Origin: the human T2T-CHM13v2.0 reference genome, Homo sapiens | Length of the DNA: 64,000 nt | Direction: 5' to 3' (one strand) | Assembly (NCBI RefSeq): GCF_009914755.1 | Contig: NC_060939.1 | Part shown: positions 42,716 through 45,240 of the stretch, piece by piece | Position numbering within the stretch: the first letter of the stretch is position 1 | Layout of the letters: the number at the start of each line of letters is the position of its first letter | Program-made: the position numbers and the translations under genes | The notes under the pieces: generated by a model | What the model was told of the DNA's origin: nothing | Databases searched by the model: none | Seen by the model: the letters and a program-made list of their open reading frames with translations, nothing else

Positions 42716-45240
42716 GTAATCCCAGCACTCTGGGAGGTGAGGCAGGCGGATCACCTGAGGTCAGGAGTTTGAGACCAGCCTGGGCAGTATAGCAAGACCC
42801 CATCTCTAAAAAAATAGAAAAATTAGACAGGTGTGGTGGCTTGCACCTGGAATCCCAACACTTTGGGGTGCCGAGGCGGGCGGATCACCTGACGTCCGGA
42901 GTTCAAGACCAGCCTGGCCAACATGGTGAAACCTGTCTCTACAAAAAATAGAAAAATTAGACAGGTGTGGTGGCTCACACCTGGAATCCCAGCACTTTGA
43001 GAGGCCGAGGCGTGCAGATCACTCTGAGCTATAACAGATGTGAAGACTCAGTGCTCGGTGGTGCCCAGGCTGGAGTGCAGTGGCGTGGTCTCGGCTCGCT
43101 ACAACCCCGTCTGGGAAGTGAGGAGCGTCTCTGCCTGGCCACCCATCGTCTGGGATGTGGGGAGCCCCTCTGCCTGGCTGCCCAGTCTGGGAGGTGAGGA
43201 GCGTCTCCGACCGGCCGCCATCCCATCTAGGAGGTGAGGAGCGCCTCTTTCCGGCCGCCATCACATCTAGGAAGTGAGGAGCGTCTCTGCCCGGCCGCCC
43301 ATCATCTGAGATGTGGGGAGCACCTCTGCCCCGCCGCCCCGTCTGGGATGTGAGGAGCACCTCTGCCCCGCCACGACCCCGTCTGGGAGGTGAGGAGCAT
43401 CTCTGCCCCGCCGCCCCGTCTGAGAAGTGAGGAGACCCTCTGCCCGGCAACCACCCCGTCTGAGAAGTGAGGAGACCCTCCACCCGGCAGCTGCCCCGTC
43501 TGAGAAATGAGGAGCCTCTCCGCCCGGCAGCCACCCCGTCTGGGAAGTGAGGAGCGTCTCCGCCCGGCCAGCCGCCCCGTCCGGGAGGGAGGTGGGGGGG
43601 GTCAGCCCCCCGCCGGCCAGCCGCCCGGTCCGGGAGGGAGGTGGGGGGGGTCAGCCCCCCGCCCGGCCAGCCGCCCCGTCCCGGAGGGAGGTGGGGGGGT
43701 CAGCCCCCCGCCCGGCCAGCCGCCCCGTCCGGGAGGGAGGTAGGCGGGTCAGCCCCCCGCCCGGCCAGCCGCCCCGTCAGGGAGGGAGGTGGGGGGTTCA
43801 GCCCCCCGCCAGGCCAGCCGCCCCGTCCGGGAGGGAGGTCGGGGCATCAGCCTCCCGCCCGGCCAGCCGCCCCGTCTGGGAGGTGAGGGGTGCCTCTGCC
43901 TGGCCGCCCCTACTGGGAAGTGAGGAGCCCCTCTGCCCGGCCAGCCGCCCCGTCCGGGAGGGAGGTGGGGGGGTCAGCCCCCCGCCCGGCCAGCCGCCCC
44001 GTCAGGGAGGGAGGTGGGTTCAGCCCCCCGCCAGGCCAGCCGCCCCGTCCGGGAGGGAGGTCGGGGCGTCAGCCTCCCGCCCGGCCAGCCGCCCCATCTG
44101 GGAGGTGAGGGGCGCCTCTGCCTGGCCGCCCCTACTGGGAAGTGAGGAGCCCCTCTGCCAGGCCAGCCGCCCCGTCCGGGAGGGAGGTGGCGGGGTCAGC
44201 CCCCCGCCCGGCCAGCCGCCCCGTCCGGGAGGGAGGTGGGGGGGTCAGCCCCCCGCCCGGCCAGCCGCCCCGTCCGGGAGGTGAGGGGCGCCTCTGCCCG
44301 GCCGCCCCTACTGGGAAGTGAGGAGCCCCTCTGCCCGGCCAGCCGCCCCATCCAGGAGGGAGGTGGGGGGGGTCAGGCCCCGCCCGGCCAGCCGCCCCGT
44401 CTGGGAGGGAGGTGGGGGGGGTCAGCCCCCCGCCCGGCCAGCCGCCCCGTCTGGGAGGTGAGGGGCGCCTCTGCCCGGCCGCCCCTACTGGGAAGTGAGG
44501 AGCCCCTCTGCCAGGCCAGCCGCCCCGTCCGGGAGGGAGGTGGCGGGGTCAGCCCCCCGCCCGGCCAGCCGCCCCGTCCGGGAGGGAGGTGGGGGGGTCA
44601 GCCCCCGACCGGCCAGCGGCCCCGCCCGGGAGGTGAGGGGCGCCTCTGCCCGGCCGCCCCTACTGGGAAGTGAGGAGCCCCTCTGCCCGGCCACCACCCC
44701 GTCTGGGAGGTGTGCCCAACAGCTCATTGAGAACGGGCCAGGATGACAATGGCGGCTTTGTGGAATAGAAAGGCGGGAAAGGTGGGGAAAAGATTGAGAA
44801 ATCGGATGGTTGCCGTGTCTGTGTAGAAAGAAGTAGACATGGGAGACTTTTCATTTTGTTCTGTACTAAGAAAACTTCTGCCTTGGGATCCTGTTGATCT
44901 GTGACCTTACCCCCAACCCTGTGCTCTCTGAAACATGTGCTGTGTCCACTCAGGGTTAAACGGATTAAGGGCGGTGCAAGATGTGCTTTGTTAAACAGAT
45001 GCTTGAAGGCAGCATGCTCGTTAAGAGTCATCACCACTCCCTAATCTCAAGTACCCAGGGACACAAATACTGCGGAAGGCCGCAGGGTCCTCTGCCTAGG
45101 AAAACCAGAGACCTTTGTTCACTTGTTTATCTGCTGACCTTCCCTCCACTATTGTCCTATGACCCTGCCAAATCCCCCTCTGTGAGAAACACCCAAGAAT
45201 TATCAATAAAAAATAAATAAATTTAAAAAAAAAAAAAAAA
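42716..45240 (+). mobile_element. SVA insertion (young D/F-lineage-like) with a non-canonical 5' end
   Basis: Perfect 17-bp TSD AGAAATAACAGATTAGG (42699-42715 and 45241-45257); Alu-like remnant from 43046; GC-rich VNTR ~43105-44710; SINE-R ~44710-45205; AATAAA and poly(A); no CCCTCT hexamer. Confidence 0.95.

What the first reader, a model, noticed from the sequence alone, without database searches (positions are those of the whole stretch)
42716..43110. Non-canonical SVA head: three tandem Alu left monomers and a short unique linker replace the CCCTCT hexamer
Seen: inside the TSD, 42716-43028 is three sense Alu left arms joined twice by the same diagnostic linker AAAAAATAGAAAAATTAGACAGGTGTGGTGGC. 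Then comes ~17 nt of non-Alu, non-SVA sequence (CTATAACAGATGTGAAG), then SVA from ACTCAGTGCTC (43046). The third arm stops at ...GATCACTCTGAG, where Alu normally continues GTCAGG, a cryptic 5' splice site. Known: SVAs gain new 5' ends by upstream transcription or splicing (MAST2-SVA_F1 in human). Inference: this is a 5' transduction, possibly spliced, from a source locus with an Alu-monomer array. Sense Alu arms next to SVA's antisense Alu-like remnant could also base-pair. It may mark an uncharacterised SVA transduction group.
Basis: partly seen in the sequence, partly recalled or inferred. Interest (0 to 1): 0.75.

Follow-up and report, generated by a model that had tools for sequence, protein, structure and literature searches.

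The report
Spliced Alu head on copied SVA
This is a copy of an SVA jumping element from chromosome 16 that carried along a piece of its upstream neighbourhood (an Alu repeat array) after an intron had been spliced out, which is a clean but single example of a mechanism already known for SVAs.

Summary
Window 42716-45240 is one L1-type insertion with a perfect 17-bp target-site duplication and a poly(A) tail. Its head is 2.3 tandem Alu left-monomer units, then 17 nt, then an SVA that starts inside the Alu-like domain.

The source is in the same genome at chr16:30.45 Mb (L021). There the same Alu array (98.4% identical) lies upstream of an SVA with the same private 68-nt internal deletion. The 17-nt linker is the chr16 flank: 5 nt, the chr16 SVA's own 11-nt target-site copy, and one extra G.

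The window copy lacks exactly 480 nt of chr16 sequence. That stretch starts with GT, at the Alu site GAG|GTCAGG, and ends with a pyrimidine run plus CAG.

The linker-SVA junction, the deletion junction and the exact 32-nt Alu linker occur only at these two loci. There is one source and one offspring, not a subfamily. The proposed Alu/anti-Alu pairing is weak (fold z -1.87).

SVA 5' transduction and splicing of upstream exons are well described (SVA_F1/MAST2, pt_SVA_D6/STK40). This is a new member of a known kind and of modest interest.

The parts
42699..42715 (+). 5' target-site duplication AGAAATAACAGATTAGG
   Evidence: Identical 17-mer at 45241-45257.
42716..42840 (+). Alu left-monomer unit 1. 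It starts at Alu position 24 and ends with the 32-nt linker.
   Evidence: Matches L021 2223-2347. The source continues 23 nt further 5'. The exact linker is at 42809-42840.
42841..42974 (+). Alu left-monomer unit 2, a full 134-nt unit ending in the same 32-nt linker
   Evidence: TRF period 134. Rfam Metazoa_SRP 37.9 bits at 42826-42941. Linker at 42943-42974.
42975..43028 (+). Alu left-monomer unit 3, first 54 nt, ending ...GATCACTCTGAG at the exon end (splice donor side)
   Evidence: In the source, L021 2535 is followed by GTCAGGAG and the rest of a complete Alu.
43029..43045 (+). 17-nt linker, the second 'exon' of the transduced flank. It is 5 nt of chr16 flank (CTATA), the 11-nt target-site copy of the chr16 SVA (ACAGATGTGAA) and one extra G.
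   Evidence: Identical to L021 3016-3032. The chr16 3' target-site copy is at the end of the chr16 poly(A).
43046..43106 (+). Last 61 nt of the SVA Alu-like domain (antisense Alu remnant)
   Evidence: 97-98% identical to other SVAs from this position on. 16 of 17 other loci have canonical sequence upstream.
43107..44709 (+). SVA VNTR, about 1603 nt (about 1895 nt in the source). It is entered through a 68-nt internal deletion private to this pair.
   Evidence: TRF periods 37-49 and multiples. The deletion junction is found at only 2 loci in the genome. Compare the chr6 copy. Lengths.
44710..45224 (+). SINE-R domain with AATAAA at 45205-45210
   Evidence: 98-100% identical to the 40 scored SVA copies. 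5 mismatches in 515 against the source.
45225..45240 (+). Poly(A) tail (16 A)
45241..45257 (+). 3' target-site duplication

Best explanation
Window 42716-45240 is a retrotransposed copy of an RNA made at chr16:30.45 Mb and inserted by the L1 machinery.

The RNA began in, or upstream of, an Alu whose left monomer is triplicated. It was spliced from the cryptic sense-Alu 5' splice site in the third monomer (GAG|GTCAGG) to a CAG acceptor 17 nt upstream of a 'headless' SVA, which removed a 480-nt intron. It then ran through that SVA and was polyadenylated at the SVA's own signal.

The L1 machinery inserted the cDNA into a MYO9A intron, antisense to the gene, creating a 17-bp target-site duplication.

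Shown: the source locus, the direction chr16 to chr15, the exact 480-nt gap with GT-AG ends, and the single-copy status of the junctions.

Inferred: that the gap arose by RNA splicing rather than deletion; that Pol II transcription came from upstream; and that L1 was the mobilising enzyme (from the TSD, the poly(A) and a TC/AGAAAT target).
For: 1. Source. One search splits the junction query into two chr16 pieces 478 nt apart (97% and 100% identity).

2. Alignment. In one search, insert 1-313 matches L021 2223-2535 at 98.4%. Insert 312 onward matches L021 3014 onward.

3. Junction. One search prints it. chr16 reads ...CACTCTGAG|GTCAGGAGTT... and ...TATTTTTCCTTTGCAAAGGCAG|CTATAACAG.... The intron is 480 nt.

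4. Direction. The chr16 SVA has its own target-site copies (ACAGATGTGAA) directly at its ends. The window copy carries the chr16 5' copy inside its own 17-bp duplication.

5. Private markers. The linker-SVA junction has 2 matches in the genome. The 68-nt deletion junction has 2 matches. The exact 32-nt Alu linker has 4 exact matches, two at each locus, among 1258 matches allowing up to 2 mismatches.

6. Splice signals. The chance of GT..AG across the 3 possible placements is about 0.011. The donor matches 6 of 9 consensus positions and is within the top 6 of 35 GTs. The acceptor is a CAG and ranks 2nd of 36 AGs for upstream pyrimidine content.

7. Known mechanism. Upstream initiation and splicing of upstream exons into SVA transcripts are described classes. 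I read passages of PMC4859970 and PMC6139936.
Against: The junction has a 2-nt (AG) ambiguity, so a microhomology-mediated deletion or a reverse-transcriptase jump cannot be excluded from sequence alone.

An identical donor 9-mer in unit 1 (L021 2267) was not used.

No transcript data were available to show that this intron is spliced at chr16.

The 5' end of the copy, inside Alu unit 1, cannot be assigned to either a transcription start or a 5' truncation.

No ape or other human genome could be searched, so the empty site was not seen directly.
Confidence: 0.92

Rival explanations
1. An unspliced 5' transduction from chr16 lost 480 nt afterwards, or lost it during reverse transcription. The loss would be a DNA deletion or an intramolecular template jump at the 2-nt AG microhomology. 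The GT-AG ends would be coincidence.
For: There is a 2-nt overlap at the junction. The same element pair carries another internal deletion of 68 nt that has no GT-AG ends, so non-splicing deletions do happen in this lineage.
Against: The chance of GT..AG ends is about 0.011. The donor sits at the Alu GAG|GTCAGG site. The acceptor is a CAG after a pyrimidine run, 2nd of 36 AGs.
Confidence: 0.05
2. This is a chimeric retrocopy. L1 reverse transcriptase switched from the SVA RNA to a separate Alu-containing RNA during insertion.
For: Template-switch chimeras are known for L1. I saw only the title and the start of the abstract of PMC13174262, in the listing.
Against: The Alu array is not a generic Alu. 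It carries the private 32-nt linker found only at chr16 and here, and it lies 480 nt upstream of the source SVA on the same strand. Both pieces therefore come from one transcript. The junction falls exactly at GT/AG.
Confidence: 0.02
3. The Alu array was already present at the chr15 site and a truncated SVA landed next to it.
For: None found.
Against: The 17-bp duplication encloses the array together with the SVA. The array is 98.4% identical to chr16 over 313 nt. The 17-nt linker is chr16 flank.
Confidence: 0.01

Closest known systems
SVA_F1 (MAST2 exon 1 spliced onto SVA_F; human)
   Same: A non-SVA 5' piece replaces the hexamer and most of the Alu-like domain. It was acquired through transcription from upstream plus splicing and then retrotransposed (passages of PMC6139936; PMC4859970). 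[quoted passage not shown]
   Different: [quoted passage not shown] Here both splice sites lie in the upstream flank: the donor in a sense Alu and the acceptor 17 nt before the SVA. SVA_F1 has at least 84 members. This group has one offspring.
pt_SVA_D6 (STK40 exon 1 on SVA_D; chimpanzee)
   Same: A spliced upstream exon serves as a new SVA head, with further 5' transductions (abstract and passages of PMC6139936).
   Different: It has 94 members and a GC-rich promoter-bearing exon. Here the head is Alu monomers with no sign of amplification.
Ordinary SVA 5' transduction (upstream initiation; about 10% of SVAs)
   Same: Flank of the source, including the source's 5' target-site copy, is carried between the new 5' duplication and the SVA (PMC4859970; here).
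   Different: The transduced stretch is not colinear with the source. An internal 480 nt are missing, with GT-AG ends.
Spliced integrated retrotransposed elements of L1 (SpIREs) and processed pseudogenes
   Same: Retrocopies that record an RNA splicing event. For PMC5860796 I saw only the title and the start of the abstract, in the listing.
   Different: In SpIREs the intron lies within L1 itself. Here it lies in the flank transduced by a non-autonomous SVA.

Membership tests
SVA retrotransposon insertion (L1-mediated) | Target-site duplication, poly(A) tail and AATAAA signal | tested here: met
   17/17-nt duplication, AATAAA at 45205-45210, 16-A tail.
SVA retrotransposon insertion (L1-mediated) | VNTR and SINE-R domains | tested here: met
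   TRF arrays at 43104-44710. The SINE-R is 98-100% identical to the 40 scored SVA copies.
SVA retrotransposon insertion (L1-mediated) | 5' (CCCTCT)n hexamer and a complete Alu-like domain (canonical full-length form) | tested here: not met
   No hexamer is present. Only the last 61 nt of the Alu-like domain remain. 16 of 17 other loci show the canonical upstream sequence. The element is therefore a non-canonical SVA.
SVA 5' transduction | Non-SVA sequence inside the duplication maps directly upstream of another SVA that shares private variants | tested here: met
   chr16 locus. The linker junction and the deletion junction each occur at only these 2 loci.
SVA 5' transduction | The source's own 5' target-site copy is carried along | tested here: met
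   ACAGATGTGAA at 43034-43044 equals the chr16 target-site copies.
Spliced 5' transduction / exon trapping by SVA | The segment missing relative to the source has GT...AG ends with a donor and acceptor context | tested here: met
   480 nt, GT at L021 2536 and AG at 3014-3015. Donor matches 6/9 consensus positions; pyrimidine run plus CAG at the acceptor.
Spliced 5' transduction / exon trapping by SVA | Acceptor inside the SVA Alu-like domain (as in SVA_F1) | tested here: not met
   The acceptor lies in chr16 flank, 17 nt upstream of the SVA.
Spliced 5' transduction / exon trapping by SVA | The upstream piece is an exon of an annotated gene | not testable with these tools
   No annotation of the chr16 locus was available. 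The only gene signal found is a coronin-type gene 15-20 kb downstream (Pfam WD40_4 at 2e-16 and Trimer_CC at 3.7e-8).
Transduction group / subfamily | Several offspring share the same transduced head | tested here: not met
   Exactly one offspring in this genome. Other human haplotypes were not searchable.
SVA_F1 | MAST2 exon 1 as head | tested here: not met
   The whole head (42716-43045) is accounted for by chr16 Alu array plus flank. No MAST2 sequence was used as a query.

The most novel reading that the evidence does not exclude
The sense Alu left monomers did more than hitch-hike. They may have substituted for the missing hexamer and Alu-like domain of a headless SVA by folding as Alu domains. 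That would dock the RNA at ribosomes through SRP9/14, capture L1 ORF2p, and so rescue mobility of an otherwise poor substrate.

Context from Raiz 2012 (PMC3287187):

- Deleting the SVA 5' 498 nt lowers mobilisation 2-5 fold.
- A 3' AluSp raised it about 25-fold.
- A 5' AluSc in SVA_F1 gave no benefit.

Against this reading:

- There is only one offspring.
- Unit 1 lacks its 5' stem.
- Units 2 and 3 read CCTGGAAT where the neighbouring Alu and unit 1 read TGTAAT.
- The head fold is unremarkable.
Probability: 0.1. Interest if true: 0.55.

Novelty: new member of a known kind. Interest (0 to 1): 0.27.

Why it matters
This is a textbook-clean case. Source, offspring, intron, both sets of target-site duplications and private markers can all be read in one genome. 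It shows that a sense-Alu cryptic donor can shape an SVA transduction, and that an SVA lacking its hexamer and nearly all of its Alu-like domain could still be mobilised once.

It does not change what is known about SVA biology. Upstream initiation, exon trapping and Alu-bearing transductions are established. The element may serve as a natural test construct for what the SVA 5' domain contributes to mobilisation. It is also a marker insertion in MYO9A intron 1, antisense to the gene, and its SINE-R overlaps a RefSeq-annotated enhancer.

Tried and rejected
- Pre-existing Alu array at chr15: rejected by the position of the duplication and by the chr16 match.
- Subfamily or transduction group: rejected for this genome.
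- Functional Alu/anti-Alu pairing in the head: the fold gives z -1.87, with 4 of 100 shuffles folding as well. The predicted contact is a short CCAGCCUGGGCA/UGCCCAGGCUGG-type complement. I did not pursue it further.
- Splicing into the SVA itself: rejected. The SVA start ACTCAG is preceded by TTC, not AG, in canonical copies, and the chr16 SVA start abuts its own target-site copy.
- Pol III Alu transcript as the origin: unlikely by inference. The copy starts 23 nt inside the Alu, is spliced and uses the SVA poly(A) signal.
- Subfamily (A-F) assignment: not attempted, because no labelled SVA references were available and I built none.
- ARAGORN on 45150-45450 found no tRNA.
- Literature. Damert 2009 and Hancks 2009, the catalogues most likely to list this element, are not held. 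The 'MYO9A' + 'SVA' search returned 10 papers. None of the 10 listed titles concerns the retrotransposon. The listed abstract openings do not mention it either. I did not open the papers.
- No ape or other human genome could be searched with these tools.

Full report
**What is in the window.**
One search shows one insertion, 42716-45240, bounded by identical 17-nt repeats, AGAAATAACAGATTAGG. The repeats lie at 42699-42715 and 45241-45257 and were checked letter for letter. The insertion ends in AATAAA (45205-45210) and a 16-A tail.

The target, read on the top strand, is TC/AGAAAT. This is a loose version of the L1 endonuclease TT/AAAA site; the consensus is as quoted in PMC3287187.

According to the hub's annotation, MYO9A is on the minus strand. 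The insertion therefore lies antisense in a MYO9A intron.

**The head.**
- TRF finds a period-134 array at 42718-43027: 2.3 copies, score 406.
- The units align with the left arm of the neighbouring complete Alu.
- Unit 2 scores 37.9 bits against Rfam Metazoa_SRP (E 1.4e-7, below the gathering score of 70), as expected of an Alu monomer.
- The 32-nt linker between units is repeated exactly, 134 nt apart, at 42809-42840 and 42943-42974. Genome-wide it has only four exact copies among 1258 matches allowing up to 2 mismatches.
- Unit 3 stops after 54 nt at ...GATCACTCTGAG (43028).
- Then come 17 nt, CTATAACAGATGTGAAG (43029-43045).
- The SVA follows from ACTCAGTGCTC (43046).

Sixteen of 17 other SVA loci examined have canonical Alu-like sequence (...GGAGTCTCGTTC) directly before that word. 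So this SVA keeps only the last 61 nt of its Alu-like domain and has no hexamer.

**The source.**
A search of the window's own genome with 42960-43110 split the query into two pieces on chr16. Query 1-69 matched 30452467-30452535 at 97%. Query 68-151 matched 30453014-30453097 at 100%.

I fetched chr16:30450001-30458000 as L021. It contains, in order:
- a complete Alu whose left monomer is triplicated (L021 2200-2755), with the same two 32-nt linkers;
- about 260 nt of unique sequence;
- an SVA that starts at ACTCAGTGCTC.

That SVA is flanked by its own target-site copies, ACAGATGTGAA, one just before its start and one after its poly(A).

So the 17-nt 'linker' of the window is 5 nt of chr16 flank, the chr16 5' target-site copy, and one G that is absent from the chr16 3' copy. 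This nesting fixes the direction. The chr16 duplication lies inside the chr15 duplication, so chr16 is the parent and the window element is the offspring.

**The splice.**
BLAST of the insertion against L021 aligns insert 1-313 to L021 2223-2535 with 5 mismatches. Insert 312 onward aligns to L021 3014 onward.

Printed side by side, the source reads ...GATCACTCTGAG|GTCAGGAGTTCAAG... at the left break. At the right break it reads ...ACTATTTTTCCTTTGCAAAGGCAG|CTATAACAGATG.... The window reads ...GATCACTCTGAG|CTATAACAGATG....

The missing stretch is 480 nt (L021 2536-3015). A 2-nt AG ambiguity allows three placements, and only one of them gives GT...AG.

From the local dinucleotide frequencies, the chance of GT..AG over three placements is about 0.011. 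The donor matches 6 of 9 positions of the recalled MAG|GTRAGT consensus and is among the six best of 35 GTs in the stretch. The acceptor is a CAG and ranks second of 36 AGs for upstream pyrimidine content.

I conclude that the RNA was spliced before reverse transcription. This is an inference, since no transcript data could be consulted. A DNA deletion or a reverse-transcriptase jump at the AG microhomology remains possible at a few per cent. The same lineage does carry a 68-nt internal deletion without GT-AG ends.

**One offspring only.**
- The linker-SVA junction occurs at 2 places in the genome.
- The 68-nt deletion junction occurs at 2 places.
- All four exact copies of the Alu linker are at these two loci.

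In this assembly there is one source and one copy, so it is not a subfamily. Offspring truncated 3' of these markers would escape these searches. Other human haplotypes could not be searched.

**Age.**
Outside the VNTR, the pair differs at 10 of 910 aligned sites: 5 of 313 in the Alu array, 0 of 82 in the linker and remnant, and 5 of 515 in the SINE-R. Four of the five Alu-array differences are at CpG sites.

Three closely related SVA copies (chr6:35.2 Mb, chr17:17.39 Mb, chr9:15.4 Mb) served as outgroups. With them, 3 SINE-R changes are private to chr16, 1 is private to the window copy and 1 is ambiguous.

This points to an insertion on the order of one to several million years old. That figure is my inference from commonly used primate substitution rates, recalled and not computed here. 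It does not decide whether the insertion is human-specific. VNTR lengths differ, about 1603 nt here against about 1895 nt at chr16.

**How the source became headless.**
The chr16 SVA starts at ACTCAG, directly after its target-site copy plus one extra G. Two other SVAs start one base earlier, at CACTCAG, again directly after their target-site copy plus one extra G:
- chr6:35.2 Mb, from the same sub-lineage;
- chr6:153.1 Mb, from a different sub-lineage that reads CAATGG where this lineage reads CGGTGG.

So three independent insertions begin within one base of each other, each with an untemplated G. Raiz et al. attribute such Gs to reverse transcription of the cap and note many start sites within SVA (PMC3287187, passages). 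Together this suggests an internal transcription start in the Alu-like domain rather than random 5' truncation. This is a side observation. The search behind it only sees elements whose base at -3 is not T.

**Surroundings of the source.**
ORFs 15-20 kb downstream of the chr16 SVA match Pfam WD40_4 (2e-16) and Trimer_CC (3.7e-8). That fits a coronin gene. I recall the gene as CORO1A, but no tool named it. No annotation of the Alu 'exon' or of a promoter upstream of it was available. The transcript's true 5' end is therefore unknown: the copy begins 23 nt inside Alu unit 1, which could be a start site or a 5' truncation.

**The base-pairing idea.**
Folding 42716-43110 as RNA gives -145 kcal/mol, against a mean of -133.8 for shuffles. 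That is z -1.87, with 4 of 100 shuffles folding as well. The predicted contact between Alu unit 1 and the SVA remnant is a short complement of about a dozen bases. The remnant derives from the 3' part of an Alu right arm, whereas the head consists of left monomers. Extensive pairing is therefore not expected, and I found no support for a function.

**Comparison with what is known.**
Hancks and Kazazian's review (PMC4859970, passages) lists four classes of SVA transcript initiation. [quoted passage not shown] The present element works like these. It differs in two respects. Both splice sites lie in the transduced flank, with a sense-Alu donor and an acceptor 17 nt upstream of the SVA. And it did not amplify.

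The two 2009 catalogues that may already list it were not available. A search for 'MYO9A' + 'SVA' returned 10 papers, and none of the 10 listed titles concerns the retrotransposon. The listed abstract openings do not mention it either; I did not open the papers. Five further full-text searches did not name this locus. Searches returned listings and one search returned none. The fifth failed on term syntax.

**Verdict.**
The phenomenon belongs to a well-described kind. I rate it a new member of a known kind, with modest interest.

The boldest reading not excluded is that the sense Alu monomers functionally replaced the lost SVA 5' domain in recruiting the L1 machinery. I give that about 10%.

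Noticed in passing
window 45258-45339: Directly after the 3' target-site copy lies a tRNA-like fragment. It has a D arm and an anticodon arm with a CUG anticodon loop, but the 3' half is broken. Rfam tRNA scores 27.3 bits, below the gathering score of 29, and ARAGORN finds nothing. It is flanked by AGAAATAACAGAT on both sides (45241-45253 and 45301-45313). The SVA therefore landed in the left copy of an older short direct repeat around a tRNA-derived piece.
   Followed up: partly
L021 3032-3043 (chr16), L007 1499-1511 / L037 2040-2062 (chr6:35.2 Mb), L058 minus strand (chr6:153.1 Mb): Three independent SVA insertions start within one base of each other at (C)ACTCAG in the Alu-like domain. Each comes right after its target-site copy plus one untemplated G. 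This looks like a recurrent internal transcription start with a cap-derived G, not random 5' truncation.
   Followed up: yes
L021 2200-2755 (chr16:30452200-30452755): The source Alu has a triplicated left monomer. Unit 1 reads GGGCAGTATAGCAAGACCCC where units 2 and 3 read GGCCAACATGGTGAAACC-type sequence, yet units 1 and 2 share an identical private 32-nt linker. This hints at unequal exchange or conversion between left-arm and right-arm starts. Its origin was not worked out.
   Followed up: no
window 43100-43110 vs L007 1562-1629: The SVA pair lacks 68 nt at the junction of the Alu-like domain and the VNTR, relative to the closely related chr6 copy. The deletion has a CC microhomology and no GT-AG ends, and is private to chr15 and chr16.
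   Followed up: yes
window 44793-45303: The RefSeq 'enhancer' feature listed by the hub coincides with the SINE-R domain and tail of this SVA. The sequence is 98-100% identical to at least 40 other SVA copies, so the annotation is of repeat-derived sequence.
   Followed up: no
window 42343-42657: A complete sense Alu with a 25-A tail lies 58 nt upstream of the insertion. It is outside the duplication and unrelated to the transduced array. It could mislead a reader into seeing a longer Alu cluster.
   Followed up: no
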